From the IMG/VR virus record IMGVR_UViG_3300037400_001705: DNA of 64,000 bases; one strand, 5' to 3'. The notes beneath the pieces are model-generated. The model did not search any database. It was not told where the DNA came from and saw only the letters and a list, made by a program, of their open reading frames with translations. The translations under genes were made by a program, and so were the position numbers. The stretch's first letter is position 1; the number at the start of each line of letters is the position of its first letter. Shown one piece after another: positions 43,825-59,535 of this stretch. Source of the DNA: an uncultured virus (IMG/VR IMGVR_UViG_3300037400_001705) (Duplodnaviria > Heunggongvirae > Uroviricota > Caudoviricetes).

Positions 43825-44067
43825 TCATTTTATTTGCATTTCTTTCATTATTTCGTCATAATCTGTAATGACACTTTTCAGAGGATTCTTATACTTTCCT
43901 TCATAGTTGACGCATCTATATATGACACCAGAGATATTGCCGTTTGGCCCCTTTATGGTACCCTTATCGGCCTTATGCTTCTCACGCTCACACAGCAGCC
44001 GCATCTTTTGTGTACAAGTAGCACAGTTGGCCTTGTCTTGTGGGAAATCGTCAATGGTCAAATACAT
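43825..44067 (-). CDS. hypothetical protein
   Basis: ORF coupled to the helicase stop (TGATG). Confidence 0.6.
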   Translation of the reverse strand: MYLTIDDFPQDKANCATCTQKMRLLCEREKHKADKGTIKGPNGNISGVIYRCVNYEGKYKNPLKSVITDYDEIMKEMQIK

Positions 44068-45590
44068 CAGTCATCCTCTTTAATGAACGTTCCTTTTTCT
44101 TCCACGTAGTCCACCTGCAAATTGGCATCACGAATGACAAACTTCTCTTTTATACGCTCGGCATTGCAGCCATAGACAATATAACTGTTGCCATCCTGCG
44201 TGCGTTTCTTGCCAAAACCGAGCTTACTCATGGTATGCCCGAACTTCTGGCCAGAAACAGGCTCTACGTCATTGTCCAAACAGAACTGTGTGAGGCTTTC
44301 AATCATTTCCGATGAAGGAATAAGGGTGTACTCTTCATGTACCGCATGGGCCTCTTTGCGCATCTGATAGCTGTTGACCCACGCCAATACGGGATTCATC
44401 TGCAACTGCGCCAACAATATCTGCCTGCGATTGCCCTCACTCGACGGAAAAACGAACTTCCTGCGCTTCAACTCCCTACTGCCCCTCAATATCCAGTTAA
44501 AGATACCGGGGTACTCGGCCACAAGTTCCCTCGACAAAGCGGGATTCTGCTTGTCTCTCGGAATGGTAATCTCAAAGCTGATAAACTGTAAGCGTCGAAT
44601 GAAACCAAGGCTCTGGTCATCACTATACGGCAACTCGTTAAGGTTGAATATCAAGAACGGAATATTGTAGTTCTCCCTTACGTCCTCGCCTAACTTCCTG
44701 TCCGTGACGCTCTCGCCAGATACGATGCGCTTAAAAACGCCCGTGCGCTTTCTGCCAAAGGTACGCTGGTCGCTATCCGATGACCAGTTGAAGATGGCTT
44801 CACGCAACAAGCGTCTGGCTCTCATACCCTCATCACCTGTGGCAGTCAGATCATCGTAGTCGAGTCCGCTGATACGCTCCTTGCCAAAGATACCGACGGC
44901 AGTATCATAGATGGTACTCTTGCCGTTGGCTCCTGCACCCAACAATATCAGGCACAACTCTATCTTCGCCGCATTTTTTCCCTCGTAGGGATTGTAGACC
45001 GTGCCGCGCTCCATCAATCCAAGACCCAAGAACATCTGCAATATCAGGCGGCTGTTCTTGTCGGGCAACACCTCATGCAGGAAGTTATTCCACTTGTTAC
45101 ACTTGGCGTTCTCTTTATACTCGTAAGGATGGTAGTACGTCACATGATACTCAGGACTGAAAGGAAACAGCCTGTACTCCCTCAAATCCAACACGCCATT
45201 CCTGAAAGCTATCAAGTCTGGACGCGGCACAAGAACGTTATAATAGCGGATGATGTCAACGAAGTATTTTTTGCAGATAGTCTTATCACCAATCATCGGC
45301 ACTATCCTCAGATGCTCCAAGAGAAGGTCGTAGGCGGTCACTATCAGCTCTTCGCGGATGGTGACATATATCTTGCCGTCAAAGAGGTAGAAACTGCCAT
45401 CGTAGTACTTGATAGCGGCTTCTTTGGCCATCTTTCTTATCTTCTCGATGAAGTCCAGTTTCTTATCTTGGTACTCTTCGGAAGTCCTGTAACCCCAGCG
45501 ACCCTTGAACTTCTCAAAGTTATAGTCACCACCGGAGCACAGTTGCAAGAGACTGGCAAAAATCTGATTGATAACTGTACTGTCTGTCAT
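44067..45590 (-). CDS. P4/D5-family primase-associated SF3 helicase
   Basis: IAFRNGVLDL (D5_N), GAGANGKST Walker A, FKRIVSGE, GFIRR. Confidence 0.9.
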   Translation of the reverse strand: MTDSTVINQIFASLLQLCSGGDYNFEKFKGRWGYRTSEEYQDKKLDFIEKIRKMAKEAAIKYYDGSFYLFDGKIYVTIREELIVTAYDLLLEHLRIVPMIGDKTICKKYFVDIIRYYNVLVPRPDLIAFRNGVLDLREYRLFPFSPEYHVTYYHPYEYKENAKCNKWNNFLHEVLPDKNSRLILQMFLGLGLMERGTVYNPYEGKNAAKIELCLILLGAGANGKSTIYDTAVGIFGKERISGLDYDDLTATGDEGMRARRLLREAIFNWSSDSDQRTFGRKRTGVFKRIVSGESVTDRKLGEDVRENYNIPFLIFNLNELPYSDDQSLGFIRRLQFISFEITIPRDKQNPALSRELVAEYPGIFNWILRGSRELKRRKFVFPSSEGNRRQILLAQLQMNPVLAWVNSYQMRKEAHAVHEEYTLIPSSEMIESLTQFCLDNDVEPVSGQKFGHTMSKLGFGKKRTQDGNSYIVYGCNAERIKEKFVIRDANLQVDYVEEKGTFIKEDD

Positions 45591-45597: not shown

Positions 45598-46212
45598 TTA
45601 TTTCAGATTTAACAGTCGGGCAAAGAAACCACGGTTAAGAAGATAGTCGATATACTCCTTGCTCTCTTTGTCTGACTGCAACAATTCGGCAGCATTGGCA
45701 CGCAAGTCTTTCGCAATACCCTTCTGCAAAGTAAGCTCAGCATCTATGAGTTTGTTCGACTGCTCAAGGGTGGTATTCTTATCACTCAGCCTTCTATTGG
45801 CCTCTTCCAGACGGGCGACTTTGTCTTCCAATAGACGCAGTTGGCTCACCGTCGGACGGGTACGCTTTTTCACCACCTTGAAGGGCATCGGCTCACCAGC
45901 ATACGCATGGGCCATGTAGGCCTTTGCGTCTTCAATGCTGAAACCTTCACCAGACGTGAAAGTAAGCGTCTTGGCATCGTACTTGACACCCTTGGACTCC
46001 AGTAACTGGAAGAAACGCTTCCTCACTCGCGACGTGGCATGACGCGCAAGGTGCATATCGACGCTGACAGTGCCACCAGCACCGTCATAAGGAGCCAGAG
46101 CCTTGTAATGACCGTCGCTATCAGTACAACACTCGCCAGTAAACACAAGGATATTTCCCAGGCCACTGACAATTACATCACCACGCTTGAAAATCCTGTC
46201 TTTGCTAATCAT
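45598..46212 (-). CDS. hypothetical coiled-coil protein
   Basis: ORF ending RGFFARLLN. Confidence 0.75.
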   Translation of the reverse strand: MISKDRIFKRGDVIVSGLGNILVFTGECCTDSDGHYKALAPYDGAGGTVSVDMHLARHATSRVRKRFFQLLESKGVKYDAKTLTFTSGEGFSIEDAKAYMAHAYAGEPMPFKVVKKRTRPTVSQLRLLEDKVARLEEANRRLSDKNTTLEQSNKLIDAELTLQKGIAKDLRANAAELLQSDKESKEYIDYLLNRGFFARLLNLK

Positions 46213-46420
46213 AACATAAGCAGAAACAGAACAAAAGATAGCTACACAAGAATGAACGTTCGGCAAATAACCTCAAAATCTCACAAAAACGCCTGCACAT
46301 CGGCATTCTCAACGATTACCATACACAACACTATGTACGATAAACACGATTTGAAGGATAAAGCCAGGACCTAAGCCCCTCTCGCTATTATACCTATCTT
46401 AAAGATAACTAAACCCGACG

Positions 46421-46428
46421 CAAAGATA
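46421..46428 (-). promoter_or_regulatory. -7 promoter box of the leftward replication operon
   Basis: TATCTTTG on the minus strand. Confidence 0.6.
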
Positions 46429-47288
46429 CACAAAATCTTTCATATCATACATTTTTATCCACAAAACCCCATAAATATTAGGATTTTTTAATGAACGATA
46501 ATATCTGATGGCTTATTTTATACTCATTTTTATGAACGAAATCGTGACATCATCAAAAATGTCAAAATTTCGGTATCGTTCATGCTTCAAACTCACCAAA
46601 TTTACACCACAAAACAGCAGCTAACGCCTGAATTGTTAAAACGACCTGAAAAATTGGGAAAAAAATATTTTTGAGGTGACTGGGGCGCAAATTTCGTGCC
46701 AGATGGGGGGGGTAGGGGGTGTTAAAGAGTATTTAACACTCCACCTTAATTTTAGTTAATATTTACACTCAACGCCCTATTTTACAGTTATTTAACACCA
46801 TTTCCGATATTATACCATATAACATAGGATATTTAATTAACATTTATTAACTTAATATATTTGGTTTAACAAATTTTTGCAGTTCGCGCCACCTTGTCAT
46901 CTCCCTGACAATCTGTCAGTTACATATTTTTGTCAATATATTTTCCATGTAAAGAAAAGCGAAATTTTGTGTTCGCTTCCAATTCTAAATAATACCTTAA
47001 TTTTTGTTAATTCATAAATATGCACTATAATGTACTGACTTTGAGCACTTTACGCGCTTTGCATATTCATCCTATTTAGACAAAACGCGCCACGACGCAA
47101 ATATTTTCTTATGAAAGATATTGACAAAACAGCCTTAAAATAGCCTTAATTTAGACTGTGTTTATAGCAATAATTTTGCACTCGCAACTACTTGATATAC
47201 AATACTTTGCAAATCTACTTTGTGTTTATAATATAGTTATTTAGACAAAATAGTAAAAATGTTTACAAAATATCTCGTTTTTATTTCG

Positions 47289-47296
47289 TACCTTTG
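47289..47296 (+). promoter_or_regulatory. -7 promoter box of the rightward accessory operon
   Basis: TACCTTTG, about 80 bp before ATG 47380. Confidence 0.65.
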
Positions 47297-47379
47297 CAGT
47301 ACATAAGAGATATAGTATTAACCAAAGGAGCGCAGCGTCTGGGCTCGCCTGCAATCAGGAACAAGGGACGCACGAAGTT

Positions 47380-48000
47380 ATGGCAAAGTTTACAGACAAT
47401 CAGAGAGAGAGCGCGAAGGTAGCAGCTATGACAGCTTACCAGAACACACTGATTGAATCCTACCTTTTCGGCGCAACCGACGAGGAGCGCGAGAACATGA
47501 AGAAGGCCTTCAACGATGACACGAAGGCGGGTGCGTTCCTGCTTATTCGTGGAACTGACTCAAAGGTCAACGAGAACGGAGAGCTGACAACCACCGACAA
47601 AGATGGTAACGTTGAAGTGTGGAAAGGTGCGTATGTGTTCACGTCTCTAACTTGGAAAGTAGACAAAGAGACTGGAAAGGTGACGGAAACGCGGAACTAC
47701 TTCCGTGCTCCTATTGAAGTTAATACGTGGGTACGTTGCGAGCGTGTCGTTAACTCGTGGATTGACTATGCCGAGCGCAAGTATCAAGACGTTTTGGACA
47801 CCATTACAAAACGTCGCGAGAAGGTTGAGAAGGATTGCAAAACGTTGATGGCCGCAGCCGTTGCCCTTCTTGAGTTTACCGACACTATTCCCGAGAAGTT
47901 CGTTGAGAAGTATCGCGAGACATACCGTGAAGGCGTCCGCTACGGTTACGCATTCGACGATGAGATTGTTTCCGCCTTCACGGAAAGCGACGGCAAGTAA
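47380..48000 (+). CDS. hypothetical protein, first gene of the accessory operon
   Basis: ORF of 206 aa. Confidence 0.85.
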   Translation: MAKFTDNQRESAKVAAMTAYQNTLIESYLFGATDEERENMKKAFNDDTKAGAFLLIRGTDSKVNENGELTTTDKDGNVEVWKGAYVFTSLTWKVDKETGKVTETRNYFRAPIEVNTWVRCERVVNSWIDYAERKYQDVLDTITKRREKVEKDCKTLMAAAVALLEFTDTIPEKFVEKYRETYREGVRYGYAFDDEIVSAFTESDGK

Positions 48001-48025
48001 TCGACACCGCACAACCAAACAAGAC

Positions 48026-48058
48026 GGGACGGGGAGAAATCCCCGCCCTATCTTTTTT
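48026..48058 (+). terminator. intrinsic terminator
   Basis: GGGACGGGGA-GAAA-TCCCCGCCC-TATCTTTTTT. Confidence 0.7.
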
Positions 48059-48065
48059 GATACCA

Positions 48066-48131
48066 TTTCAAAAATCCCCTGACGAGTCTTTGAGAATTAA
48101 GACGAAACACCTGGCGTGTCGGGATCTGAAA
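48066..48131 (+). ncRNA. hammerhead ribozyme (type I)
   Basis: Stem I ATCCC/GGGAT, core CTGACGA, stem II GTCTT/AAGAC, GAA, stem III ACAC/GTGT, GUC cleavage triplet ending at 48120. Confidence 0.9.
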
Positions 48132-48193
48132 AATCTCCAGTGTATTGTCCGACTGAACGAACGGACTGAACGAATAAAACGAACGAACGATTT

Positions 48194-48583
48194 ATGAGAA
48201 CGAACGAACAACTGGCCCGAACGAACGAGCCGAACAACCGAACGACTAACGATGCTGCCAGACAGCTTCGCAGACGTCAGGCAAAGAGAAATGAGAATGT
48301 ACGGAGAGCGATTTTAGACGCTATCGAGAGTACGATTCCGTATGCTCCGCGCCTGATTGAGTTCCCGAACGAGATTGTAGTACGAACGAAGTACGAGAAC
48401 CACGCTATTTTCCGCGCCAAGTATCTGCGAACGAGTACGCATTTCCCCGGCATTGTTCCAGAGCTGGTGAACGATAGCGGTGGCTACATGCTGATAACGT
48501 GGTTGACGTTTGGCTCTCTGCTGAGATTGCTCAAGGAAGTACGACAGGGCAATGAGATTAAGAATTTCGATTTCTTCATGTAA
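48194..48583 (+). CDS. hypothetical protein between the two ribozymes
   Basis: ORF of 129 aa; N-terminus encoded by AACG repeats. Confidence 0.65.
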   Translation: MRTNEQLARTNEPNNRTTNDAARQLRRRQAKRNENVRRAILDAIESTIPYAPRLIEFPNEIVVRTKYENHAIFRAKYLRTSTHFPGIVPELVNDSGGYMLITWLTFGSLLRLLKEVRQGNEIKNFDFFM

Positions 48584-48594
48584 ACGATACGATT

Positions 48595-48726
48595 ATGAAG
48601 TACGTACAGAAATTCAGGGTTGCCTATTGGTACATTGTATTGGACGGCAAAGAGATTAGGTCAAACAAGTACGAAGGGACAGGTTATCGCCCAAAGATTG
48701 AAAGCGACCTGATTAGAATAGATTAA
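48595..48726 (+). CDS. 43-aa hypothetical peptide
   Basis: MKYVQKFRVAYWYIVLDGKEIRSNKYEGTGYRPKIESDLIRID; stop abuts the twister. Confidence 0.45.
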   Translation: MKYVQKFRVAYWYIVLDGKEIRSNKYEGTGYRPKIESDLIRID

Positions 48727-48798
48727 CACAGAGCGACGGCAGTACGATTGTGCTGCCGGTAATGTGGCCATCCTTCGGGATGCTGGTTGCAAGCCCAG
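48727..48798 (+). ncRNA. twister ribozyme (P5-type permutation)
   Basis: CACA-GA-GCGA-[P1 hairpin]-G-T^AA-TGTG-GC-[P3 CATCC TTCG GGATG]-CTGG-TTGC-AA-GC-CCAG. Confidence 0.88.
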
Positions 48799-48799
48799 A

Positions 48800-49450
48800 C
48801 GAACAACATTCAAGCGGTTAGAGCGTATGCGGAGCCTGCGAAGTACGCAAGTACGATGAACAGAGAGAGCTGCAGCCGTTACGTAGACGAAACCGAGGTG
48901 AACGAGTTTCACGTAGGGGAGTAGTTGAGCCGACCTGGAAAGATGGTGCAAGGGCTACGTTTTAGGACGTCCCCAAGATGGCTTTGAACAATTTATATTA
49001 CATGATTGATTCTCGCAGTTGATTGCGAGTACGATATAGAGTTGGCTACCTATCTCGAGTACGACTGTAGAAATGCAGTACGATTTATCAGAGGATAATT
49101 CGTGGTGGTTCCCGTCGAAAGGTACGATAACACATTTAATCACTTTAGGATGAATCGGGCCGTGTACTTGTGGAGTACGATGACCCCACCGCTACAGACG
49201 AATTAGATGTTTGTCTGGACGGATGGTGGAATCTTGCGCCAAAGTACGATGAACGGCTGCAATGAAAGATATTACGAGGTGCGAGACCTCAGCATAAAGA
49301 ACGGCCTGACAGATGACCAAATCTGTCACATTCCCTCGGTTGGGGCAACGACGGCCTACATTGTTAGGAAAGTCCCAGGTGAACGAAAGACGATAAAGAA
49401 CGAAGAGGGAGAGACTACGGGAGAGAGTGGAATTACATCTACTCTCTCTT
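48800..49450 (+). ncRNA. candidate large structured ncRNA 1
   Basis: No convincing ORF; many hairpins and long-range complementarities. Confidence 0.6.
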
Positions 49451-49475
49451 ACTATTAACCAAATATTGTACGATT

Positions 49476-49706
49476 ATGAAAAGAAAGCATTTCAGAATGA
49501 TTGCAGGCATCATCCTGCATCCCGTGAGAATCCTCGTTGCACATTATTACCGCAACACGTATCAGAACGTCATCCGTCGCAACATTGCCGAACGTTGGCA
49601 TTGGAAGAACTACGACAGGATGCACCACATGAGCGAGGTTACAGGTACGGCCTACACGAAGAGCGACCTTTACGGCAAGCTCATGGAAGAAACCTGCATC
49701 TATTAG
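49476..49706 (+). CDS. hypothetical protein
   Basis: ORF bounded by repeat elements. Confidence 0.75.
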   Translation: MKRKHFRMIAGIILHPVRILVAHYYRNTYQNVIRRNIAERWHWKNYDRMHHMSEVTGTAYTKSDLYGKLMEETCIY

Positions 49707-49756
49707 CCTCTCGCAGCCTTGAACGGCTGCACCACTAACCGAAAAAAGCAACAATT

Positions 49757-49954
49757 ATGAAGAAATTCCTACAAATCTCAAAGAATGTTTTGAGTATGAG
49801 TGTTATTGTACTCATCAGTTTGGCAATCTGCTCCATTGTGGCATTGGCCATCCTCTACGTGTTCGGTATCAATAATACGACGCTTCGGGCTGGTGCCTGC
49901 ATCGTATTCTTTGGCACTATCATCGTGGCCCTTATGTTGGGCGCGTTCGATTAA
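49757..49954 (+). CDS. small two-TM membrane protein
   Basis: Two hydrophobic helices. Confidence 0.7.
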   Translation: MKKFLQISKNVLSMSVIVLISLAICSIVALAILYVFGINNTTLRAGACIVFFGTIIVALMLGAFD

Positions 49955-50024
49955 CGGTCTTACGGATTTTTGTGGCGAAAATGCTGCAAAAATCGCTCAT
50001 GTTTCACCAAATAGAATGAACGAT

Positions 50025-50303
50025 ATGGATAAGTTAAAGAAATTGCAGATGTTAGCCCGTGTTCTCAGAGAGCACCGCGGCTACAAAGGTAACAAAGAGT
50101 CAGACCATTCCAACAGGTTTGACTTCAAGTTTGACAAGAAGGGCGACATTTGTGGGCCGTACATAGACATCTATAATGCCGAGAAGGGTGCAAATCTCTT
50201 CCTGTGGCCTGATTTTATCGAGCTGTGTCACGGCTTGGGTCTGTCTCATTACATTACCTATGACCAATTTGACCTCAAAGAGGTGGTGCTACACATCTAC
50301 TAA
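50025..50303 (+). CDS. hypothetical protein
   Basis: MDKLKKLQML...; bounded by elements. Confidence 0.7.
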   Translation: MDKLKKLQMLARVLREHRGYKGNKESDHSNRFDFKFDKKGDICGPYIDIYNAEKGANLFLWPDFIELCHGLGLSHYITYDQFDLKEVVLHIY

Positions 50304-50358
50304 GTCTCTCGGCTCCTGATGGAGCCACATATTTTTCACCAATTTAAAAAACGAACGT

Positions 50359-50613
50359 ATGAAGAACAAAGTTTTAAGAACAACGGCAATTTTCCGTTGC
50401 ATCGTGACGCTCAAGAACGGAGCGCATCGCATTGTAAGGACAACGATTGACAATGTAGCCAAGTTGAATGCTGCACTTTTGCAGTACCGCGACTTTGGTC
50501 TGCTTAACAATCGCTATTCAGATTTCATGAAAGAGCTGGGCCTGGCTGCCTACGATGTTCTGTCCTGCAAGGTCATCAACGAACGGACAGGACAAGAATT
50601 GATGACGATTTAG
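50359..50613 (+). CDS. hypothetical protein
   Basis: ORF bounded by elements. Confidence 0.75.
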   Translation: MKNKVLRTTAIFRCIVTLKNGAHRIVRTTIDNVAKLNAALLQYRDFGLLNNRYSDFMKELGLAAYDVLSCKVINERTGQELMTI

Positions 50614-50670
50614 CCTTTATAGGGTGGGGACGTTTTGCCGCCATCCTACCACAAACCAATAACTTTCACG

Positions 50671-50838
50671 ATGGTAATAAATAAAGTAATCCGCGATAAG
50701 AGCGGTTTTTGGTATGTTGGCAGACTTTTGACCGCAGATCCAGACGGCGTGCCCGTCTTTCAGCGCCTGTCAGAACTCTATTGCCACAAGGGATGGGCAT
50801 TGAATTTCGCCCGTCGTATGTGTATCAAGCTATCGTAG
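50671..50838 (+). CDS. hypothetical protein
   Basis: MVINKVIRDKSGFWYV... Confidence 0.65.
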   Translation: MVINKVIRDKSGFWYVGRLLTADPDGVPVFQRLSELYCHKGWALNFARRMCIKLS

Positions 50839-50911
50839 CCTTTTCGGCATGGGTGGGTTTTATTTCGTTCGTTCGCCTGCCTGTGCTGCTATTAACCAAA
50901 TCTTTATTGTT

Positions 50912-51337
50912 ATGTTAAAATCAGAATTTTATGACAGAACGCACGTATCTCTCTCGGATGAAGAGTATGGTGCAGTAGAGAACATCTACAATCGTGTCCA
51001 GATGGACAAAGACGAGTTTTGCAGACTGTGGCTTGACAATCGCGACAACAAAATCATCAACGAGCTTGTGTCGTATGCCATGGGTGTCGAGAAAGCGAAT
51101 GCCGCATTAGACAAAGTAAGCAAAGAGCTGGAAGAGAAGTTGGCTGGAGAGTTAGCAGAGAGACAGAAGCACCTGCTGGACTTTGGCCGCAAGGTTGTTT
51201 CCTATCTTGACGACGAATCACGGCTCTACGACTTTTGTGTAGAAGAGTTCGGTCAGAACTTTGTCATCAAGGTCAAGCTGGAGTGTAACATCGACCTTGA
51301 CACCAACGAACGCGAGTATCTTGCAAAGATGCTGTAG
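50912..51337 (+). CDS. hypothetical protein
   Basis: MLKSEFYDRT...MDKDEFC. Confidence 0.8.
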   Translation: MLKSEFYDRTHVSLSDEEYGAVENIYNRVQMDKDEFCRLWLDNRDNKIINELVSYAMGVEKANAALDKVSKELEEKLAGELAERQKHLLDFGRKVVSYLDDESRLYDFCVEEFGQNFVIKVKLECNIDLDTNEREYLAKML

Positions 51338-51393
51338 TCTATTGAACTGGTAACAATTTGTCACCAGTTCACTATTCACCAACAATTTACAAT

Positions 51394-51609
51394 ATGAACA
51401 AAAAGAATTTATTCAAAAAACAGGCTAATGTTGCTGAATGTACCATCGTTTGGAAAGACTCTGGCGAGAAAGAAAATGTAATCATCAGCCTTGACGGCAG
51501 CGACAACGACGGCATTTTCTTTGTCTGCAATTCAGAGGAAGAGTTTGCTCAACTGACAGAAGATTCCAGCGGCGAAGATTTTGACATTGTTACATTCAAG
51601 ATTTTGTAA
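51394..51609 (+). CDS. hypothetical protein
   Basis: MNKKNLF...DDGIFF-like acidic domain. Confidence 0.7.
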   Translation: MNKKNLFKKQANVAECTIVWKDSGEKENVIISLDGSDNDGIFFVCNSEEEFAQLTEDSSGEDFDIVTFKIL

Positions 51610-51671
51610 GTCTCTCTATCATTTTCGTGACCTCACGAAAATGGTACATTATTCACCAAATATTATTACTT

Positions 51672-52046
51672 ATGAAGATTTTGATTGAGACACGCTCTCC
51701 AGAGAACAACAACCTCCTGCATCCTGTATATAAGCAGGTGATAGGAGAGAGAGAAATTCCGTGTGCTGACGTAAAGAAGATTGGCAACTGTTGGTATGCT
51801 ATCAATTATGGTGGCCACATCGTTACAGGCGTGGAACCTGAGCGTATCAAGGAAGTACGCACGAATAGCGGTCTACTTTTCAATGTACATTTCGACCACA
51901 CGGGTTATCTCCAAGGAAAGAAATTCTGTTGTGAGGCGTACAGAAATCCGAACAACGGCTACGGATCGTGTTATTGCACCCTTGACGGTATCATGGACTA
52001 CATTCACCAAGAGGAACGATTTGAAGCACGTCTCTCGCAGTCTTAG
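51672..52046 (+). CDS. hypothetical protein
   Basis: MKILIETR...; stop lies inside the hairpin of an element. Confidence 0.75.
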   Translation: MKILIETRSPENNNLLHPVYKQVIGEREIPCADVKKIGNCWYAINYGGHIVTGVEPERIKEVRTNSGLLFNVHFDHTGYLQGKKFCCEAYRNPNNGYGSCYCTLDGIMDYIHQEERFEARLSQS

Positions 52047-52076
52047 GACTGCACTATTCACCAAACATCAAAGAAT

Positions 52077-52313
52077 ATGGAGAAACTTTTGAGAAAACAG
52101 CTCCATCTTGTCGGCTCAGCTGGCACGTTGGAAAACCTTTGTGAGTACGCTAAGAAAAGACTTTACTGGTCGCAGTTCGAAACCTCTGAGAGTACACGCT
52201 ACGAATCCCGTATTGGTAAGGTGTACGATGTGAGTAGTTCTAACGGCCTTGTTTCTGATATGGTCATCATTCAGGGTAAAGTACGTTGTTCACTCTTTCG
52301 GATAGAGAAGTAA
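52077..52313 (+). CDS. hypothetical protein
   Basis: ORF. Confidence 0.7.
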   Translation: MEKLLRKQLHLVGSAGTLENLCEYAKKRLYWSQFETSESTRYESRIGKVYDVSSSNGLVSDMVIIQGKVRCSLFRIEK

Positions 52314-52316
52314 GCT

Positions 52317-52553
52317 ATGATGACGGCTTTCAGAAGCTCTCTTATATGGAGAGATACCGTTTCCTATGCGGTTAGCATCTTCTCTTTCATTATCCGTGGA
52401 GAGGGAGAAATGAGCGGACGAAAGTTTGCTGAACATATCCGTAATTATTGCGGATGCTCTGACGAAAAACAAAAGGTCATTCTTTCCGAGATTGAAAAGC
52501 ACATCGTGAGGATTGAGGCCACCTACAGAGGAACAAAGTATTACTGCGTATGA
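52317..52553 (+). CDS. hypothetical protein
   Basis: ORF. Confidence 0.6.
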   Translation: MMTAFRSSLIWRDTVSYAVSIFSFIIRGEGEMSGRKFAEHIRNYCGCSDEKQKVILSEIEKHIVRIEATYRGTKYYCV

Positions 52554-52708
52554 ATAACGGTAAAGTCAAGTGGCTCACGTTCACGGACAATCCCCAATGG
52601 GGTCGTTACTTCATTGGCGAGAGTGATTCTAAGGCAGAAGCCCACACCAAAGGAAAGGCGGCAAACAAAGGCCGCTACGTTGTTGAACGAAGAGTAAAGT
52701 TCAAGTAG
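52550..52708 (+). CDS. 52-aa hypothetical protein
   Basis: MNNGKVKWLTFTDNPQWGRYF...; ATGA coupling; stop is the TAG of an element. Confidence 0.6.
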   Translation: MNNGKVKWLTFTDNPQWGRYFIGESDSKAEAHTKGKAANKGRYVVERRVKFK

Positions 52709-52762
52709 TCTTTTGCGGCTCTTGCATGAGCCGCACAAACAACCCTTTAAAACTGAAAGAAT

Positions 52763-53650
52763 ATGGAAAGAAGAGAAAAAGTAAATGCAATCAGAAGTCT
52801 GGCTGTAAGTAGCGGACGGATGATTAGTATGGACCCCGAAAGCTGGGGCGAGCATCGCCTGAACGCTTTGGAATCTGAGCTGCAGGAGTTTCTTGCAAAA
52901 ATTCCCGAAGAGGTACGTGACGAGTACGAAGATAAGTACATCGGCAAATACAAAGAATGGCTCTATGCTATGAGCCGTTGTGTCTCTCAGATGGTGACGG
53001 GTGCAGGCGGTTGGACGTCTTCCATGCTTCGACGCAAGCAGAAGAACGACCAGTACGAGCGTAATGCCCGTGAACGTCTTGATAAGTGGGCCGAAAAGGT
53101 CATCAAGCGCTGCAATCGTCAAGAACGTCTGACCGGCTGGGCTGAGGTTGAACGCTTGCAGGAAAAACTCGACAGCCTTAAAGAATCCCAGGAGATGATG
53201 AAGGCTGCAAACAAGATTATCCGCAACAATAATCTTGCAGAGGTTGAAAAGGTTGACGAGTTGGTTTCCCTTGGCTTTAACGAACAAACTGCATTGAAGC
53301 TCATGGAGCCAGATTTCTGCGGACGAATCGGCTTTGCCTCTTACGCTTTGAGCAACAACCTTGCCACCATCAAGGACACGGAAGCCAAAATCAAGCGTCA
53401 TGCTGCAATGGCAGAGCGTGCGAGAGGTGGTGACGAGGTTCACGATTACCCTTGGGGAAAGCTGGTTGTTGCTTTCGGCGACGAACGCTACCGCTTCATC
53501 TTCGACGGAAAGCCAGCCCCGAACGTCATCAGCCTCATGAAGTCGAACGCTTTCAAGTGGAGCCCTTCAAACTCAGCGTGGCAGCGTCAGATTACCGCCA
53601 ACGCAAAGTATGCCGTGAAGCGTATGATTGAAGAGCTCAACAACATGTAG
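52763..53650 (+). CDS. DUF3560-like / polyvalent-protein-associated domain protein
   Basis: GFASYALSNN.ATIK; RFIFDGKP...LMKSNAFKWSPSNSAWQRQIT.NA. Confidence 0.7.
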   Translation: MERREKVNAIRSLAVSSGRMISMDPESWGEHRLNALESELQEFLAKIPEEVRDEYEDKYIGKYKEWLYAMSRCVSQMVTGAGGWTSSMLRRKQKNDQYERNARERLDKWAEKVIKRCNRQERLTGWAEVERLQEKLDSLKESQEMMKAANKIIRNNNLAEVEKVDELVSLGFNEQTALKLMEPDFCGRIGFASYALSNNLATIKDTEAKIKRHAAMAERARGGDEVHDYPWGKLVVAFGDERYRFIFDGKPAPNVISLMKSNAFKWSPSNSAWQRQITANAKYAVKRMIEELNNM

Positions 53651-53702
53651 CCTTTAGCCCGCCTTGCATGGTGGGTACCACAAACCAACAAATATTTGAA
53701 TT

Positions 53703-54017
53703 ATGAGAGTAACATTAGCACGGAATTGTGGCAACAATATTGTTGAACACATTATCTTTGACGACCCTTACAGGGCACAAAATTTCTACGGGACATATTG
53801 CGGCAAGGTAGCTGGCGTCGTGAAGTGCGAAAGCATCTACACTATCGGTGCAGGCGAACACAAAGAAGAAAACTGCTTCAACTGCCCGCTGCATCACTGC
53901 TGCCTATGCGAGAACCGCAAGTTCACAGACGAGAACGGCACGAAGTTCTACGTATCTGTGTGGGACACCACAAAGAAAAGCAACGAACAGAATGCTATCA
54001 AGAAACTCGAATTTTAA
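53703..54017 (+). CDS. Cys-rich hypothetical protein
   Basis: ORF. Confidence 0.7.
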   Translation: MRVTLARNCGNNIVEHIIFDDPYRAQNFYGTYCGKVAGVVKCESIYTIGAGEHKEENCFNCPLHHCCLCENRKFTDENGTKFYVSVWDTTKKSNEQNAIKKLEF

Positions 54018-54085
54018 GAGTAGTCTTTCACTATTTCGTTGACTCCGACGAAATAGTACTATTAACCAATAAAGCAAAAAAAACT

Positions 54086-54259
54086 ATGGAAGAAAAGACA
54101 ATTAAAGTAGAGGGCGAAATAACCCTCAACCTGCACGGAGGAAGCCTATGCACGGCCCTGCTGCGCATCAATGGCGAACAAAAGTATTTTACCTCCCAGC
54201 TGGGTAGCTCTGATCTCATGCAGAAAATCGGTAAACATATCCAAACTCATAGCGTATGA
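54086..54259 (+). CDS. hypothetical protein
   Basis: MEEKTIKVEGE... Confidence 0.6.
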   Translation: MEEKTIKVEGEITLNLHGGSLCTALLRINGEQKYFTSQLGSSDLMQKIGKHIQTHSV

Positions 54260-54543
54260 AGATTGAATTATTTACAGGAGCGAAGACAATCCAAGTAGAT
54301 TGTTTTGCCTGCGAAGAAAAGACGAGGTATCGCATTGCGGCTTATTATGGTGGTGTGTATATCAAAACGCTCTACACCTGCAACAGTGAGATAGAACGTC
54401 ACGAAATGATTTGCAACTACATGAGCCAAACGCACAATGCAGGATGCAAAAACTCTTCTCTTTACGTACGTATTGGCAGTGGCCTTTGCTTCTTCTATTG
54501 CGATGGCCTGATGATTATGGAAGAAGAAATCTATGACGTCTAA
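54256..54543 (+). CDS. hypothetical protein
   Basis: ATGA coupling. Confidence 0.65.
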   Translation: MKIELFTGAKTIQVDCFACEEKTRYRIAAYYGGVYIKTLYTCNSEIERHEMICNYMSQTHNAGCKNSSLYVRIGSGLCFFYCDGLMIMEEEIYDV

Positions 54544-54554
54544 AACATGCTGAT

Positions 54555-54884
54555 ATGAATATAAGTTATTATCTCTATCTCTCAACGGCAAACTGTCAGG
54601 AATCTCACTCTCTTAGAATCTGCTCGGATGCAAATTTGACAGTCATTCGTGATGCCATTTCAAACATTATACGTGCCATGTTTGAAAGACGGCCGCATTG
54701 GTATTCCGAGGAATACGTCAACTGTCAAGCTGACGAAATGACCATGCTGTTTGCTGACCTTCTGAAAGATGGCTCGCCCATCACTAAACGCAAATATCCA
54801 TTCTATCATCTTGGCTTTATCATCACAAATTATCCAATGTGGCCAGACAACAACGGTGGGTATCTGAGCGACTTTCATGTATAA
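54555..54884 (+). CDS. hypothetical protein
   Basis: ORF. Confidence 0.7.
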   Translation: MNISYYLYLSTANCQESHSLRICSDANLTVIRDAISNIIRAMFERRPHWYSEEYVNCQADEMTMLFADLLKDGSPITKRKYPFYHLGFIITNYPMWPDNNGGYLSDFHV

Positions 54885-54946
54885 GTCTCACACCATTTCG
54901 CTGACACCAACGAAATGGTACACTTTAACCCTAAAAACAAAAGAGT

Positions 54947-55129
54947 ATGACAAAAACAATCTTTATGAAAGTCCGCGTCGATTACGATGATGACGGACGT
55001 TACGGCTCATACGAGGCCGACAGCATGGTTGCCGACATGGTTGTAGAGCGTGCGCAGGCACACAACCACACCGTAGAGAACGGCATACGCATTGAGAAAA
55101 TCACTAATCATGGGATAGATAGTTATTAA
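54947..55129 (+). CDS. hypothetical protein
   Basis: ORF. Confidence 0.65.
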   Translation: MTKTIFMKVRVDYDDDGRYGSYEADSMVADMVVERAQAHNHTVENGIRIEKITNHGIDSY

Positions 55130-55148
55130 CCCTTAAACTTATGGGAAT

Positions 55149-55484
55149 ATGGAAAACAATGCAGTAAACAAGGACGCTCAGCGCATCCATGAAATTACGG
55201 GCCGACCAATGGCCGAGTGTGAAGAGCAGGCAAAGCAGATTGCCGAGTGTGTACGTGAAATGTGTGACCGTGTGGTGGAGTTCTACTATCTTAAGAAAGA
55301 CGGCACTACACGGCAGGCTTTCGGTACGCTTCAGCAGGAAGTTGTGATTGCTCATGTGACAGCTGACTCCATGAGAGAGCCAAAGCCTGACCTCGTAACG
55401 TATTTCGATACTGAGGCGCAGGCATGGCGTTCTTTCAAGAAAGTCAACTTCAAGAACTACGTTAAGCAGGAGCCACAAGCATGA
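55149..55484 (+). CDS. WYL-like SH3 beta-barrel protein (DUF2693-like)
   Basis: VEFYYLKKDGTTRQAFGTL...TYFDTEAQAWRSFK. Confidence 0.8.
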   Translation: MENNAVNKDAQRIHEITGRPMAECEEQAKQIAECVREMCDRVVEFYYLKKDGTTRQAFGTLQQEVVIAHVTADSMREPKPDLVTYFDTEAQAWRSFKKVNFKNYVKQEPQA

Positions 55485-55618
55485 CGGATTTAGCCAAAAT
55501 CCTGTGGTGGATTTTTATCGCTTCTCTCACGCTTGGCGTCTGGACACTACCAATCGTAGTGGTTCTCGTCATCATCCAAATGTATCTCAAAAAGAAGCAC
55601 CCGAATTGGTGCAAGTAA
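55481..55618 (+). CDS. small membrane peptide
   Basis: MTDLAKILWWIFIASLTLGVWTLPIVVVLVIIQMYLKKKHPNWCK. Confidence 0.6.
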   Translation: MTDLAKILWWIFIASLTLGVWTLPIVVVLVIIQMYLKKKHPNWCK

Positions 55619-55681
55619 AGTCTTAAGCCGTGCAAAGGACACGGCACTATTTATTGTCTAACCGTTTAAATAGTAAGAATT

Positions 55682-56590
55682 ATGAAGAAAGAAAAGAATG
55701 CCTACACCGTAGAGAATGCGAAAGTTCCAGTAGTACGCTACGACTATTACAAGCGTGAAACAAAAGGCTATCTGCATATCGACGGCGGGCTGGTCTACGT
55801 CACCGTCACGGCTATCTGCATCAACTTCAAGAAGCAGCAGATCACGACGGTTCTCACGGACAAGAACGGCAAGGAGTACAAGCAGGAGGGCACATACAAC
55901 CTCTATGATTCTCCTTCGAAGTTCGAGAATAACAGCCCCATGGAGCCGACAAAGAACTTCACGTACAATCTCATTAAGAACGCTGACTGGGGCAGGCTTG
56001 CCGAGTGTGCAGTATCCAACATCGACGAAGAGGATGGCAAGAAATCTTGCTACATCAACGTCTGGACGTTCGAGAACGGAGCAGCCCAACAGGTTCCAGC
56101 CGTCATCAACGAAATTTCCTGCGACGCTTACGAGAAGTGGCACCTAACGGATGGCTCGCTGCCCGCCAAGTTTTGGGAGAGCCGAGAAGATGCCTTTGCC
56201 TGCAACGAGTACCAGGTTACCGACAGCGACGGCGAGGTGTTTGTGGAGCAGGGCTACCAGATGCGCCTTCTCCCAACTCCTGCCCAGTGGGTCATCATCA
56301 AGCAGATGAGAGCACTCTTCGAGAAAGCCAAGGAAGCAGGACTTTACTTCGTTTGGGACAGAGCGTATTGCGGCAATCTCAAGGCTGTAAACTATCAGAA
56401 CGTCTACACCTTCGATTACGACGCTGAGAATTTCGAGGGTGGAGACCTCATCCCTGTCAATAAGGCTGCGCTTGCTGACACTGGCATCGACTTCTATGAC
56501 TATTGTGGCGACGAGAGTGACAGGTATGCGTTTGCCCTCAATCCCATGGCACGTCAGAAAAAGGAATGGCTTAAGAACCATGCCAAGTAA
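55682..56590 (+). CDS. hypothetical protein
   Basis: ORF of 302 aa. Confidence 0.85.
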   Translation: MKKEKNAYTVENAKVPVVRYDYYKRETKGYLHIDGGLVYVTVTAICINFKKQQITTVLTDKNGKEYKQEGTYNLYDSPSKFENNSPMEPTKNFTYNLIKNADWGRLAECAVSNIDEEDGKKSCYINVWTFENGAAQQVPAVINEISCDAYEKWHLTDGSLPAKFWESREDAFACNEYQVTDSDGEVFVEQGYQMRLLPTPAQWVIIKQMRALFEKAKEAGLYFVWDRAYCGNLKAVNYQNVYTFDYDAENFEGGDLIPVNKAALADTGIDFYDYCGDESDRYAFALNPMARQKKEWLKNHAK

Positions 56591-56647
56591 GTCTCTAAGG
56601 TGGCCTTGCATGGCCACCACAATTATTAACCAATAAATTGTAAGAGT

Positions 56648-57061: not shown

Positions 57062-57099
57062 TCTTTCTCCCTGCTTGCAAGCAGGGAACAACAAACCAA

Positions 57100-57580: not shown

Positions 57581-57636
57581 AGTCTCATGGGGAATGTGGA
57601 CGCACATTCCCTACTACTAACCAACTACACAAGATT

Positions 57637-58364: not shown

Positions 58365-58424
58365 CCTCAGTGTGCAGCGTGATTTTGTCACGCTGTTCCC
58401 AATAACCCCTAAATATATCAGAAT

Positions 58425-58745: not shown

Positions 58746-58779
58746 GTGGGTTCACTATTAACCAAACAACATCATCATT

Positions 58780-59475: not shown

Positions 59476-59535
59476 TTTAGTCTCTCGTGCCCAATGGGTA
59501 ACCATTGGGTAGCCACTAACCAAACTTTTAAGAAT

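What the first reader, a model, noticed from the sequence alone, without database searches (positions are those of the whole stretch)
48800..49450. Candidate ~600-nt ornate ncRNA with a ladder of mutually crossing long-range helices
Seen: TGCAGCCGTT (48871) with AACGGCTGCA (49252); AACCGAGG (48891) with CCTCGGTT (49334); GTAGG (48913) with CCTAC (49355); ACCTGG (48933) with CCAGGT (49375). The partners occur in the same order rather than nested, so they would be serial pseudoknots or intermolecular contacts. Local hairpins include CTCGCA/TGCGAG, GAGGT/ACCTC, TGACAGAT/ATCTGTCA and GAGAGAGTGGA/TCTACTCTCTC. The two shorter pairings could be chance. Inference: a large structured phage RNA comparable to GOLLD/ROOL or a new class.
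Basis: partly seen in the sequence, partly recalled or inferred. Interest (0 to 1): 0.8.

Follow-up and report, generated by a model that had tools for sequence, protein, structure and literature searches.

The report
Ribozyme-headed structured phage RNA, motif-studded

Summary
A Twister-P5 ribozyme (48727-48798) sits directly 5' of the region. Downstream lie a variable 5' domain (to ~48990) and a conserved 3' domain (49000-49460). In 30 homologues, 66 hand-placed pairs in 10 helices are 96.5% paired, against 41-47% when partners are slid, and 33 pairs show compensatory changes. The four long-range "ladder" pairings are not: 23-60% paired in 21 homologues, and their arms lie in better-supported local helices. 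No Rfam family matches, and the 83-codon ORF is not conserved. Contigs from RNA libraries of 4 studies cover 49004-49425. The motif A-GUACGA-U occurs 7 times in the region and 14 times over 1.15 kb, all on the sense strand (273 against 0 in 34 sequences), mostly in linkers and loops. Best reading: a ribozyme-processed RNA that offers many binding sites for an unknown reader, as a sponge or scaffold. That function is inferred only. The family is confined to Prevotella-type ruminant-gut phages. This scan noted the same RNA type earlier on other DNA (e1-5854521).

The parts
48074..48125 (+). Candidate type I hammerhead ribozyme (first ribozyme slot, context). Its conserved core letters match the model consensus; cleavage would follow GUC at about 48120 (position recalled from hammerhead architecture).
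   Evidence: Rfam Hammerhead_1 scores 21.6 bits, below the gathering score of 34, E=0.13. In relatives the same slot holds a weak hammerhead (L006) or a twister-P1 (L001, L010, L035; E 3e-9 to 5e-8). A terminator-like hairpin at 48030-48045 precedes it.
48727..48798 (+). Twister-P5 self-cleaving ribozyme. The predicted cut lies between U48760 and A48761, so the downstream RNA would begin at A48761 with a 5'-OH.
   Evidence: Rfam RF02684 scores 46.1 bits against a gathering score of 37.6. The family is also found above gathering directly upstream of the RNA in 9 of 20 loci and in L006 and L035. A twister-like start was found by pattern in 26 of 34 distinct sequences. The cut site follows the 'NA' rule quoted in PMC11662667 (passages) plus my recall of the architecture. 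Cleavage was not tested.
48761..49462 (+). Proposed mature non-coding RNA of about 700 nt: the twister 3' remainder, variable domain A, conserved domain B and the terminal hairpin.
   Evidence: The 5' end is inferred from the twister. The 3' end is inferred from hairpin H8 and the gene start at 49476. MFE is -217.7 kcal/mol, z = -3.92 against 20 shuffles. RNA-library contigs of 4 runs from 4 studies cover 49004-49425.
48815..48895 (+). Domain A, a conserved nested three-helix element: 48815-18/48892-95, 48823-25/48882-84 and 48828-32/48870-74.
   Evidence: RNAalifold on 14 sequences. The 13 pairs are 97.8% paired against 27-55% when slid, and 4 pairs change on both sides.
48843..48854 (+). GUAC-GCAA-GUAC: two motif copies that can pair with each other through the palindromic GUAC around a GNRA-type loop.
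   Evidence: Read from the sequence. Relatives have CGUAC-UCA-GUACG at the same place (alignment). Inference only.
48990..49001 (+). Conserved box, AAAUCAUAUUCUU in relatives and AAUUUAUAUUAC in the window, at the border of domains A and B.
   Evidence: Nearly invariant in A2 and A3. RNA contigs of relatives run through it (loose ends), so it is transcribed. Its role is unknown.
49012..49098 (+). Four hairpins separated by GUACGA linkers: Ha 49012-49029, Hb 49036-49053 (loop UGGCUAC), Hc 49064-79, Hd 49085-98.
   Evidence: Each forms in 25 of 25 homologues, with 11, 8, 12 and 13 distinct stem sequences. Coordinates.
49104..49157 (+). H1 (49104-08/49112-16) and H2 (49125-32/49151-57). H2 carries the 16-nt loop CAUUUAAUCACUUUAG (49133-48), and its 5' strand is the CGAU of a GUACGAU copy.
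   Evidence: H1 99.4% and H2 89.0% of cells paired; H2 has 5 pairs changed on both sides. The invariance of the loop is partly due to how the homologues were fetched.
49158..49258 (+). Helix GGCCG/CGGCU (49158-62/49254-58) closing an optional insert of about 90 nt that holds its own hairpin (49195-49203/49209-49217).
   Evidence: closing helix 96.0% paired, insert hairpin 100% paired with 4 pairs changed on both sides. The insert is missing in 16 of 30 sequences.
49277..49328 (+). H3 (49277-80/49286-89) and H4 (49307-13/49322-28), flanked by invariant single strands (UGAAAGA..AUU, AUAAAGAA).
   Evidence: 100% and 92.4% paired. In many relatives the H4 loop holds GUACGAUUCAUAA.
49332..49410 (+). 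The only supported long-range helix, H5 (49332-37/49405-10). It encloses H6 (49340-46/49372-78) and an inner hairpin; the junctions CGGUUG, CAGGAGA and AACGAAG are conserved.
   Evidence: H5: 6 of 6 pairs change on both sides and 100% of cells are paired. H6: 99.5% paired, with 4 pairs changed on both sides.
49419..49462 (+). Terminal hairpin H8 (49419-29/49440-50) followed by ACUAUUAACCAA. It belongs to a hairpin-plus-box element that precedes most + strand genes from 49476 to about 59000.
   Evidence: H8: 96.7% paired, 7 pairs changed on both sides. The recurrence of the box before other genes is seen.
48330..49473 (+). Cluster of 14 exact GUACGA copies, 7 of them inside 48800-49450 (at 48851, 49029, 49059, 49078, 49122, 49175, 49244). 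The consensus is A-GUACGA-U. The cluster runs from the upstream 129-codon ORF, through the twister loop, to 3 nt before the ATG at 49476.
   Evidence: 46 copies in the window on both strands against 23.0 +/- 4.0 in shuffles, with 0 of 100 shuffles reaching 46. In 48121-49475, GTACGA is 14:0, GAACGA 16:0 and ACGA 40:1 sense to antisense. Over 34 sequences, 273 sense copies against 0 antisense.

Best explanation
The region is most of a gene for a structured non-coding RNA of about 700 nt, belonging to an uncatalogued family of temperate Prevotella-type phages of the ruminant gut. It is transcribed as part of the rightward early transcript. The Twister-P5 ribozyme (predicted cut at U48760/A48761) frees its 5' end from the upstream small-ORF message, and the terminal hairpin H8 marks its 3' end. 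The RNA has two parts. The 5' domain (to ~48990) is variable and mosaic, and only a three-helix element is kept. The 3' domain (49000-49460) is conserved: a string of hairpins plus one long-range helix that encloses a junction with invariant single-stranded bases. In the window's structure the copies of the sense-only motif A-GUACGA-U lie mostly in the linkers between hairpins, and in relatives also in hairpin loops. I infer that the RNA works as a multivalent platform, a decoy/sponge or scaffold, for a sequence-specific reader of that motif, most likely a protein. In more distant relatives that lack this RNA, the same motif occurs in clusters, often at hairpins. Shown here: conservation, covariation, no conserved coding, the ribozyme match, motif enrichment and strand polarity, and presence in RNA libraries. 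Inferred: the cleavage, both RNA ends, single-strandedness in vivo, and the whole sponge/scaffold function. I put 'processed structured ncRNA of a new family' at about 0.85 and the sponge/scaffold function on its own at about 0.3; the confidence given is for the statement as a whole.
For: Structure: 66 pairs in 10 helices are 96.5% paired over 1780 cells, against 41.0-47.3% with partners slid. 33 pairs change on both sides, and 0 of 500 shuffles reach any of the five measures. RNAalifold on its own found 35 pairs, 18 of them compensatory. Domain A: 13 pairs, 97.8% paired. The four 5' hairpins form in 25 of 25 sequences with 8 to 13 distinct stems each. Not coding: the window's 83-codon ORF has an ATG at the aligned column in 13 of 30 sequences, and the aligned frame stops within 49 codons in 27 of the 29 other sequences. 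The phage's long genes are open under table 11. Ribozyme: Twister-P5 is above gathering in the window and in 11 relatives. Family: a covariance model of 49262-49420 gives one strong hit (117-183 bits) in each of 34 of 58 sources, including 3 Prevotella/Bacteroidaceae MAG contigs. Among primase relatives with about 7.6 kb or more of upstream flank, the RNA is present in all 6 with primase identity of 71% or more. Not a known family: no Rfam match in the region at E up to 10 and no blastn match in 50,697 phage records. RNA libraries: contigs of 156-482 nt from 4 of 4 metatranscriptome runs (4 studies) cover 49004-49425 at 88% likeness or more. Motif. In homologues the exact motif swaps with GAACGA, AAACGA, AGACGA or GAGCGA at the same slots, and copies turn over inside the upstream ORF between the window and L001. 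This suggests selection on number rather than on position. GTACGA clusters also occur in relatives without the RNA core: 8, 6 and 5 copies per 1.2 kb in L017, L021 and L018. In five such relatives, 24 of 45 copies lie beside a possible stem of 5 bp or more (a loose test with no control).
Against: No reader of the motif is known or was found. Bacteroides RbpB has no short motif in print that could be compared (passages). Some motif copies are partly base-paired: the CGAU of H2, and GUAC with GUAC at 48843-54. Four copies lie inside a real protein-coding ORF (48194-48583, also intact in L001), which a DNA-level signal would explain equally well. The RNA evidence consists of assembled contigs from RNA libraries. 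These cannot show ends, strand or level, and can contain DNA. The homologues were fetched with exact words from the RNA itself, so the invariance of those words and the apparent narrowness of the family are partly artefacts. The 30 aligned sequences are related, so the shuffle control overstates significance; the slid-partner control is the fairer one. The helices were hand-placed on the same alignment on which they were counted, which favours them over the slid versions. Twister cleavage was not tested, and L010, L076 and L089 have the RNA without a Twister-P5 in 1.5 kb of upstream flank.
Confidence: 0.55

Rival explanations
1. It is a long structured 5' leader acting in cis on the genes downstream, for example a processive antiterminator like HK022 put or lambda nut, or a riboswitch-like sensor, rather than a free-standing RNA.
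For: It ends 14 nt before the next gene's ATG. It heads a long array of small + strand genes, most of them preceded by a hairpin plus an ACUAUUAACCAA box. The first gene of the operon ends in a terminator-like hairpin that transcription must pass. The H5/H6 junction has invariant single-stranded bases flanked by covarying stems, as riboswitch aptamers do. In 15 of 30 homologues a GUACGA lies within 10 nt of the downstream ATG.
Against: The downstream gene is not the same in all homologues. At least two unrelated gene starts follow the RNA, whereas cis-regulators usually travel with their gene. At 450-700 nt it is far larger than put or nut sites (sizes recalled). The ribozyme-defined 5' end and the optional ~90-nt insert fit a stand-alone RNA better. 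No ligand or antitermination factor is indicated.
Confidence: 0.2
2. The repeated octamer is a DNA-level signal, such as iterons of a replication origin or a cis replication region read by the P4-alpha-like primase-helicase, or a partition or packaging site. On this view the RNA structure is secondary.
For: The motif is a short direct repeat, all in one orientation and irregularly spaced. It runs across coding and non-coding sequence alike. It lies 3-4 kb from the primase/helicase gene (44067-45590) and about 1-2 kb from an AT-rich divergent region at the GC-skew minimum. Phage P4 uses octamer iterons in ori and crr (recalled).
Against: Compensatory changes in 33 of 66 pairs show selection on the RNA fold itself. 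In the window's supported structure the motif sits mostly in linkers between hairpins, and in relatives also in loops and next to start codons. No spacing in phase with the DNA helix is evident (differences computed, by inspection). Contigs from RNA libraries cover the region. The two levels are not mutually exclusive.
Confidence: 0.08
3. One reading: a ROOL/GOLLD-like ornate RNA whose four same-order long-range pairings form serial pseudoknots or contacts between molecules.
For: The four complementary word pairs exist in the window, three of them at nearly the same offset of 442-443 nt. GUAC is self-complementary and could support loop-loop contacts. ROOL and GOLLD are phage/prophage RNAs of similar size that form cages through kissing loops, and GOLLD also has a conserved 3' and a variable 5' region (PMC12286853, passages).
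Against: The pairings are 54%, 60%, 46% and 23% paired in 21 homologues, against 96.5% for the supported helices. Changes on one arm are not compensated (L004, L009, L063). Both arms of R1 have conserved local partners, and the 3' arms of R2 to R4 overlap H5, H6 and the inner hairpin. A 10-mer appears by chance in 8.2% of shuffles. No Rfam ROOL or GOLLD match. The nearest tRNA is 12 kb away.
Confidence: 0.03
4. The conserved 3' core (H5/H6 junction plus GAGACUACGG) is an undescribed self-cleaving ribozyme or processing signal that cuts the RNA just before H8, making this a three-ribozyme locus.
For: The locus already holds two ribozyme slots, and the first is filled by either of two ribozyme classes in relatives. 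New ribozyme classes have been found in such neighbourhoods (recalled; PMC5737381 names twister sister, pistol and hatchet as found this way, passage). The junction bases are invariant.
Against: No sequence or structural likeness to any Rfam ribozyme model. There is no direct evidence for a cut. Where contigs stop is weak data, and no DNA run was laid as a control.
Confidence: 0.05
5. The region encodes small proteins: the 83-codon ORF 49207-49458, or the short ORFs that follow the GUACGAUG copies.
For: An 83-codon ORF exists in the window. Three GUACGAUG copies supply ATGs at 48856, 49180 and 49249.
Against: The ORF is not kept in the homologues. Indels in the alignment are not multiples of three. 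The ORF has no PHROG family hit. The variation follows helices, not codons.
Confidence: 0.02

Closest known systems
ROOL and GOLLD RNAs (large ornate phage/prophage RNAs; PMC5737381 passages; PMC12286853 passages)
   Same: A large non-coding RNA (about 0.5-0.8 kb) with many covarying helices, carried by phages or prophages. The ruminant-gut origin matches ROOL. Like GOLLD it has a conserved 3' part and a less conserved 5' part. Its function is unknown.
   Different: No Rfam model match. It is not near tRNA genes. Its 5' end abuts a twister ribozyme. It is dominated by a string of simple hairpins with only one supported long-range helix and no supported pseudoknot. It carries a repeated sense-only octamer. 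The family is much narrower: 34 distinct sequences plus 3 MAG contigs found here.
CsrB/RsmZ-type sponge RNAs (recalled knowledge)
   Same: The design logic is the same: many copies of one short motif displayed in hairpin loops and inter-hairpin linkers of a non-coding RNA, with the same motif also found close to start codons of some mRNAs.
   Different: The motif is A-GUACGA-U, not GGA. No CsrA-like reader is identified. The RNA is phage-encoded and ribozyme-processed. It also has a large invariant core that a pure sponge would not need.
Twister/hammerhead-associated orphan RNA motifs (the RAGATH motifs of Rfam; name recalled) and ribozyme-punctuated phage operons
   Same: A structured RNA of unknown function directly beside self-cleaving ribozymes in a phage early region.
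   Different: No RAGATH or other Rfam model matches at E up to 10. This RNA is several times longer than those motifs (sizes recalled).
HK022 put and lambda nut leader RNAs (recalled knowledge)
   Same: A structured RNA near the head of a phage early operon that contains many hairpins between its genes.
   Different: It is about ten times larger. It is cut free by a ribozyme. It is followed by different genes in different relatives. No evidence of action on RNA polymerase.
Octamer iterons of phage P4 ori/crr bound by the alpha primase-helicase (recalled knowledge)
   Same: A short repeated motif of about 8 bp in irregular clusters, near a P4-alpha-type primase-helicase gene (PHROG match).
   Different: All copies are on one strand. 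They sit in the single-stranded parts of an RNA whose helices covary. They are also found in hairpin loops and next to start codons.

Membership tests
Twister ribozyme, type P5 (Rfam RF02684) | Covariance-model score at or above the curated gathering score | tested here: met
   46.1 bits against 37.6, full model 1-58, at 48727-48798. Also met in 9 of 20 loci and in L006 and L035.
Twister ribozyme, type P5 (Rfam RF02684) | Covarying stems around the conserved core (UAAUG..GC, GCAAGCCC) | tested here: met
   Core letters are invariant in 26 of 26 sequences, while both hairpin stems differ in sequence between them (alignment A2). Judged by inspection, not counted formally.
Twister ribozyme, type P5 (Rfam RF02684) | Site-specific self-cleavage 5' of the conserved A | not testable with these tools
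   Site predicted at U48760/A48761 from the 'NA' rule (PMC11662667 passages). Contigs cannot show RNA ends.
Hammerhead ribozyme type I (Rfam RF00163) | Score at gathering threshold; conserved core CUGANGA..GAAA..UH | tested here: inconclusive
   21.6 bits against 34 (E 0.13), but the core letters match the consensus (alignment). The same slot holds a twister-P1 in L001, L010 and L035.
ROOL / GOLLD RNAs | Match to the family covariance model | tested here: not met
   No match to any Rfam 15 family in 46000-52000 at E up to 10, other than twister, hammerhead and a chance MS2 hit.
ROOL / GOLLD RNAs | Frequent location near tRNA genes in phages or prophages | tested here: not met
   It is in a phage, but the only tRNA in the window is at 37007-37080, 12 kb away.
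ROOL / GOLLD RNAs | RNA-only homo-oligomeric cage | not testable with these tools
No tool for RNA quaternary structure.
CsrB/RsmZ-type protein-sponge RNA | Many copies of one short motif in single-stranded loops and linkers of a non-coding RNA | tested here: met
   7 exact copies in the region and 14 in 1.15 kb, 273:0 sense to antisense across 34 sequences. Positions are linkers and loops relative to the helices (by inspection).
CsrB/RsmZ-type protein-sponge RNA | GGA motif and a CsrA-family reader | tested here: not met
   The motif is A-GUACGA-U. No reader was identified. So it may work like such a sponge but is not a member of that family.
Protein-coding gene | Open frame conserved in homologues | tested here: not met
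   an ATG at the aligned column in 13 of 30 sequences, and early stops in 27 of the 29 others.

The most novel reading that the evidence does not exclude
A phage uses self-cleaving ribozymes to cut out a stable ~0.7-kb RNA whose hairpin chain displays up to a dozen copies of one octamer. This RNA would titrate or assemble a sequence-specific RNA-binding factor, or link to itself through the palindromic GUAC cores, and so time early gene expression or blunt a host RNA-targeting defence. It would be the first sponge/scaffold-type regulatory RNA described for Bacteroidota phages, and it would give twister and hammerhead ribozymes in phages a concrete job.
Probability: 0.25. Interest if true: 0.8.

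Novelty: new variant of a known kind. Interest (0 to 1): 0.66.

Why it matters
Large structured RNAs of phages (GOLLD, ROOL) are few, and their functions are unsolved. The biological role of the many twister and hammerhead ribozymes in phage genomes is also an open question. This locus ties the two together. A ribozyme-bounded cassette and a strongly covarying ~700-nt RNA appear in RNA libraries from four studies, and the RNA carries an unusually clean repeated motif of 8 nt with absolute strand polarity, which is a direct handle for pull-downs and mutagenesis. The first ribozyme slot is filled by a hammerhead in some relatives and a twister in others. That argues that the act of cutting, not the ribozyme class, is what selection keeps. 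The family occurs in Prevotella MAG contigs, and the phage carries an integrase, so a lysogenic isolate could make it experimentally tractable.

Tried and rejected
1. Alternative genetic codes. TAG=Q and table 4 open only patchy frames over the region, and the phage's 2,055- and 2,109-codon genes are open under table 11, so recoding is rejected.

2. Relatives of the flanking small proteins (129 aa, 76 aa) in viral contigs: none found.

3. blastn of 48550-49500 against 50,697 phage records: no match. The nearest cultured phages (LoVEphage group) share only 51% TerL and 31% primase identity and were not examined for the RNA.

4. A bare 16-mer scan of viral contigs: 24 of 31 matches were chance, by flank check. 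One of the 4 genome matches (L093, an Elusimicrobia MAG) is also chance, with no covariance-model hit.

5. The conserved box as a pairing partner of AAAGAUAUUA, and the 16-nt H2 loop as a pseudoknot partner of AUUAA/UAAAG. Both sides are invariant or change without compensation (by eye), so neither is claimed.

6. The box as a promoter from which the RNA starts. Contigs of relatives run through it, so it is at least not the only start.

7. RNA runs. No contig was laid over 48134-48803 or beyond 49474, and contigs stop at 49379, 49414, 49418 and 49425. Absence of cover is not evidence. No DNA run was laid as a control, so I draw no conclusion on ends or relative abundance from this.

9. Full-text search for the octamer. 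The top paper (cabRNA preprint) holds a single incidental copy inside a phage gene sequence, which is not meaningful.

10. A test for co-occurrence of a reader protein with the RNA across whole contigs (for example the WYL_2 protein at 55149-55484) was considered and not run, because there are too few independent lineages.

11. The covariance model found no full copy in primase relatives of 65% identity or less. L014 has only a weak, truncated H3+H4 version (24.4 bits).
Full report
**Setting.** The window is a tailed phage. It has a large terminase, portal, tape measure and primase/helicase by PHROGs, and an integrase, RadC and a WYL_2 protein by Pfam. Its terminase is 50.9% identical to that of the Bacteroides LoVEphage group. 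No whole genome is held for it. Genes run leftward up to 46266. An AT-rich stretch (GC 0.30-0.35, 46200-47400) at the GC-skew minimum follows. Small genes then run rightward from 47380. The finding (48800-49450) lies in this rightward early region and contains no ORF longer than 83 codons.

A permissive Rfam scan of 46000-52000 adds a hammerhead type I candidate at 48074-48125. It is below threshold (21.6 against 34 bits), but its core letters match the consensus. Nothing else is credible, and nothing at all lies inside 48800-49450 at E up to 10. From the 'NA' cleavage rule for twisters (PMC11662667, passages) and my recall of the fold, the cut would fall between U48760 and A48761.

As evidence of structure they are weak. 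A long-range complement of 10 nt or more turns up in 8.2% of 500 dinucleotide shuffles of the region, and matches of 8 nt or more average 1.34 per shuffle. The four local hairpins, by contrast, are all confirmed (see below).

**Homologues.** The flanking small proteins have no relatives in viral contigs. I therefore fetched 29 loci through the primase. Six of them carry DNA alignable to 48724-49494 at 67-94% identity. An invariant 16-mer from these brought one further viral contig; 24 of its 31 matches were chance. A two-word pattern brought 32 metagenome loci and 4 genome contigs. After removal of 6 duplicates there are 34 distinct sequences including the window.

One caveat applies throughout. 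Because exact words of the RNA were used as bait, those words are invariant by construction, and diverged members were missed.

A covariance model of 49262-49420, which excludes the bait words, scores 117-183 bits once in each of 34 of 58 sources. These include three Prevotella/Bacteroidaceae MAG contigs, but not the fourth genome match, which is chance. Among primase relatives with enough upstream flank, the RNA is present in all six with 71% or more primase identity. At 65% or less it is absent, apart from a weak, truncated version in L014.

**Structure of the conserved 3' domain (49000-49460).**
- On a MAFFT alignment of 30 sequences (A1), RNAalifold predicts 35 pairs, 18 with compensatory changes.
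- An unbiased scan for stacked, covarying column pairs recovers the same helices. It also finds a helix GGCCG/CGGCU that closes an optional ~90-nt insert, and a hairpin within that insert.
- For a hand-assembled structure of 66 pairs in 10 helices, 96.5% of 1780 cells are standard pairs, against 41.0-47.3% when partners are slid by 1-3 columns. 33 pairs change on both sides, and no shuffle out of 500 reaches any measure.
- The best helix is the single long-range one, H5 (49332-37 with 49405-10). All six of its pairs covary (UCCCUC/GAGGGA, with CCCA/UGGG, CGGAA/UUCCG and CCCGA/UCGGG in relatives) and no cell is unpaired.
- Upstream of A1, four hairpins (Ha to Hd, 49012-49098) form in 25 of 25 sequences, with 8 to 13 different stem sequences each.

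**The 5' domain (48799-48990).** This part is mosaic. Whole blocks differ between subgroups (A2). One nested three-helix element is kept (48815-48895): 13 pairs, 97.8% paired against 27-55% when slid.

I used the 21 non-window sequences present in both alignments.
- The four proposed long-range helices are paired in 54%, 60%, 46% and 23% of cells.
- Changes on one arm are not compensated on the other. For example, L004 and L009 replace the R1 5' arm while keeping or changing the 3' arm independently.
- Both R1 arms have conserved local partners instead. The 5' arm lies in the domain-A element. The 3' arm forms CGGCU with GGCCG at 49158-62.
- The R2 5' arm supplies the ACCG of the outer domain-A helix.
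- The 3' arms of R2 to R4 overlap H5, H6 and the inner hairpin.
- The ladder is therefore rejected, although the general idea of a large structured RNA stands.

**Not coding.** The 83-codon ORF (49207-49458) is not kept. An ATG stands at the aligned column in 13 of 30 sequences, and 27 of the 29 other sequences stop within 49 codons in the aligned frame. Recoding does not rescue a frame.

**Presence in RNA libraries.** Six RNA runs held a small share of the words. Laying four of them, from four studies of ruminant or other animal gut by their records, gave contigs of 156-482 nt covering 49004-49425 at 88% likeness or more. They come from close relatives, and their upstream ends continue into the relatives' own domain A and through the conserved box. 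Contigs show presence in an RNA library. They do not show ends, strand or level, and DNA carry-over is possible.

**The motif.**
- GTACGA occurs 46 times in the window against 23.0 +/- 4.0 expected (0 of 100 shuffles reach 46).
- In 48121-49475 the sense-to-antisense counts are 14:0 for GTACGA, 16:0 for GAACGA and 40:1 for ACGA. Outside this stretch the motif is at chance level.
- Across the 34 sequences there are 273 sense copies and none antisense in 37.8 kb. A precedes the motif in 95% of copies and U follows in 66%.
- Relative to the supported helices, the copies sit in the linkers Ha-Hb, Hb-Hc, Hc-Hd and H1-H2, in the insert, in the J6/5 strand, and in the loops of the twister stem, H4 and H8 in various relatives. 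Their edges often supply the closing pairs of neighbouring stems.
- At a given slot, relatives may have GAACGA, AAACGA, AGACGA or GAGCGA instead.
- Four copies lie in the real 129-codon ORF upstream of the twister, in different frames, and they turn over between the window and L001.
- More distant relatives that lack the RNA core still have clusters of 5-8 copies per 1.2 kb. There, 24 of 45 copies lie beside a possible stem of 5 bp or more, and only 4 lie within 30 nt of a long ORF's start.
- In 15 of 30 homologues a copy lies just before the ATG of the gene that follows the RNA.

**How it most likely works.**
- Shown: a conserved, covarying, non-coding element present in RNA libraries, immediately 3' of a twister ribozyme that is above threshold, with a sense-only repeated octamer.
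- Inferred: the early transcript reads through the terminator-like hairpin at 48030-48045 and is cut by the first ribozyme and again by the twister. The RNA from A48761 to about 49460 persists as a 5'-OH species closed by H8. Its many exposed A-GUACGA-U sites bind a sequence-specific factor. The logic resembles the CsrB/RsmZ sponges, or alternatively an assembly scaffold.
- The large invariant junction (H5/H6, the 16-nt H2 loop) implies a further, unknown interaction.
- I give about 0.85 to 'processed structured ncRNA of a new family' and about 0.3 to the sponge/scaffold function.
- The rivals are a cis-acting leader, DNA-level iterons, a new ribozyme in the core, and small ORFs. Each is laid out with its tests in the Rival explanations section.

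**Comparison and novelty.** The RNA resembles ROOL and GOLLD in size, phage carriage and habitat, and it shares GOLLD's conserved-3'/variable-5' layout. It fails their model match and their tRNA context. It resembles ribozyme-associated orphan motifs in its context but matches none of them.

Six full-text searches (plus the octamer check) turned up no description of this RNA or motif. Subscription-only literature and supplements were not seen. I reached and tested the points above on this window's own data.

I file it as a new class within the known kind 'large structured phage RNAs of unknown function'. It is unusual for its ribozyme-defined start and its multivalent motif.

Noticed in passing
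window 48030-48760: A ribozyme-bounded cassette. In order: a terminator-like hairpin, a hammerhead candidate (48074-48125), a tract rich in GAACGA (about 48140-48260), two small ORFs (48194-48583 and 48595-48726), then the twister. If both ribozymes cut, an RNA of about 640 nt with a 5'-OH and a 2',3'-cyclic phosphate would be released. Such ends are ligatable in principle, so a circular mRNA is conceivable. In relatives the first slot holds a twister-P1 instead of a hammerhead, and the ORFs between the ribozymes differ.
   Followed up: partly
window 49419-59000, + strand: Most rightward genes are preceded by a GC-rich hairpin, then a box like ACTATT(A/C)ACCAA, then 8-17 nt, then ATG. Examples lie before 49476, 49757, 51394, 51672, 52077, 56648, 57637 and 58780. 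H8 of the RNA is one of these hairpins. They could be terminator-promoter modules, processing sites or 5' stabilisers. In L014 and L017 the GUACGA motif is fused directly to this box.
   Followed up: partly
window 48074-48109: In all four metatranscriptome runs laid, the hammerhead core is matched (0-3 differences in about 32 nt) by contigs that otherwise do not resemble the window. One is a 1,114-nt contig at word depth 61.6 that carries the match at both of its ends. This could be a circular or tandem hammerhead-bearing RNA from another element.
   Followed up: no
L006 2400-2560 (- strand): One relative has a tandem duplication of the Hb-Hc-Hd-H1 hairpin module with its GUACGA linkers, giving 16 motif copies in 1.2 kb. 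The module can evidently be multiplied.
   Followed up: no
L014 5965-6045 (- strand): A relative with 60% primase identity has a weak, truncated match to the RNA model (24.4 bits). It keeps H3 and H4 and their flanking conserved strands but lacks the H5/H6 domain.
   Followed up: partly
window 55149-55484, 58425-58745, 58780-59475, 59494-60864, 61359-62378: Pfam finds several proteins in the rightward region: a WYL_2 (Sm-like SH3 barrel) protein, a stand-alone MutS domain I protein, RadC, DUF2851 and a phage integrase. The phage is therefore probably temperate. The WYL_2 protein would be one candidate nucleic-acid binder to test against the motif.
   Followed up: no
window 46200-47400: An AT-rich (GC 0.30-0.35) divergent intergenic region at the minimum of cumulative GC skew, dense in sigma-70-like matches on both strands. 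It is the likely control region and/or origin.
   Followed up: no
window 47380-48000: The first gene of the rightward operon (206 aa) has no PHROG match and only a sub-threshold Pfam TANGO2 match. The C-terminal ends of the genes at this position look alike in several relatives (seen in the sequence print).
   Followed up: no
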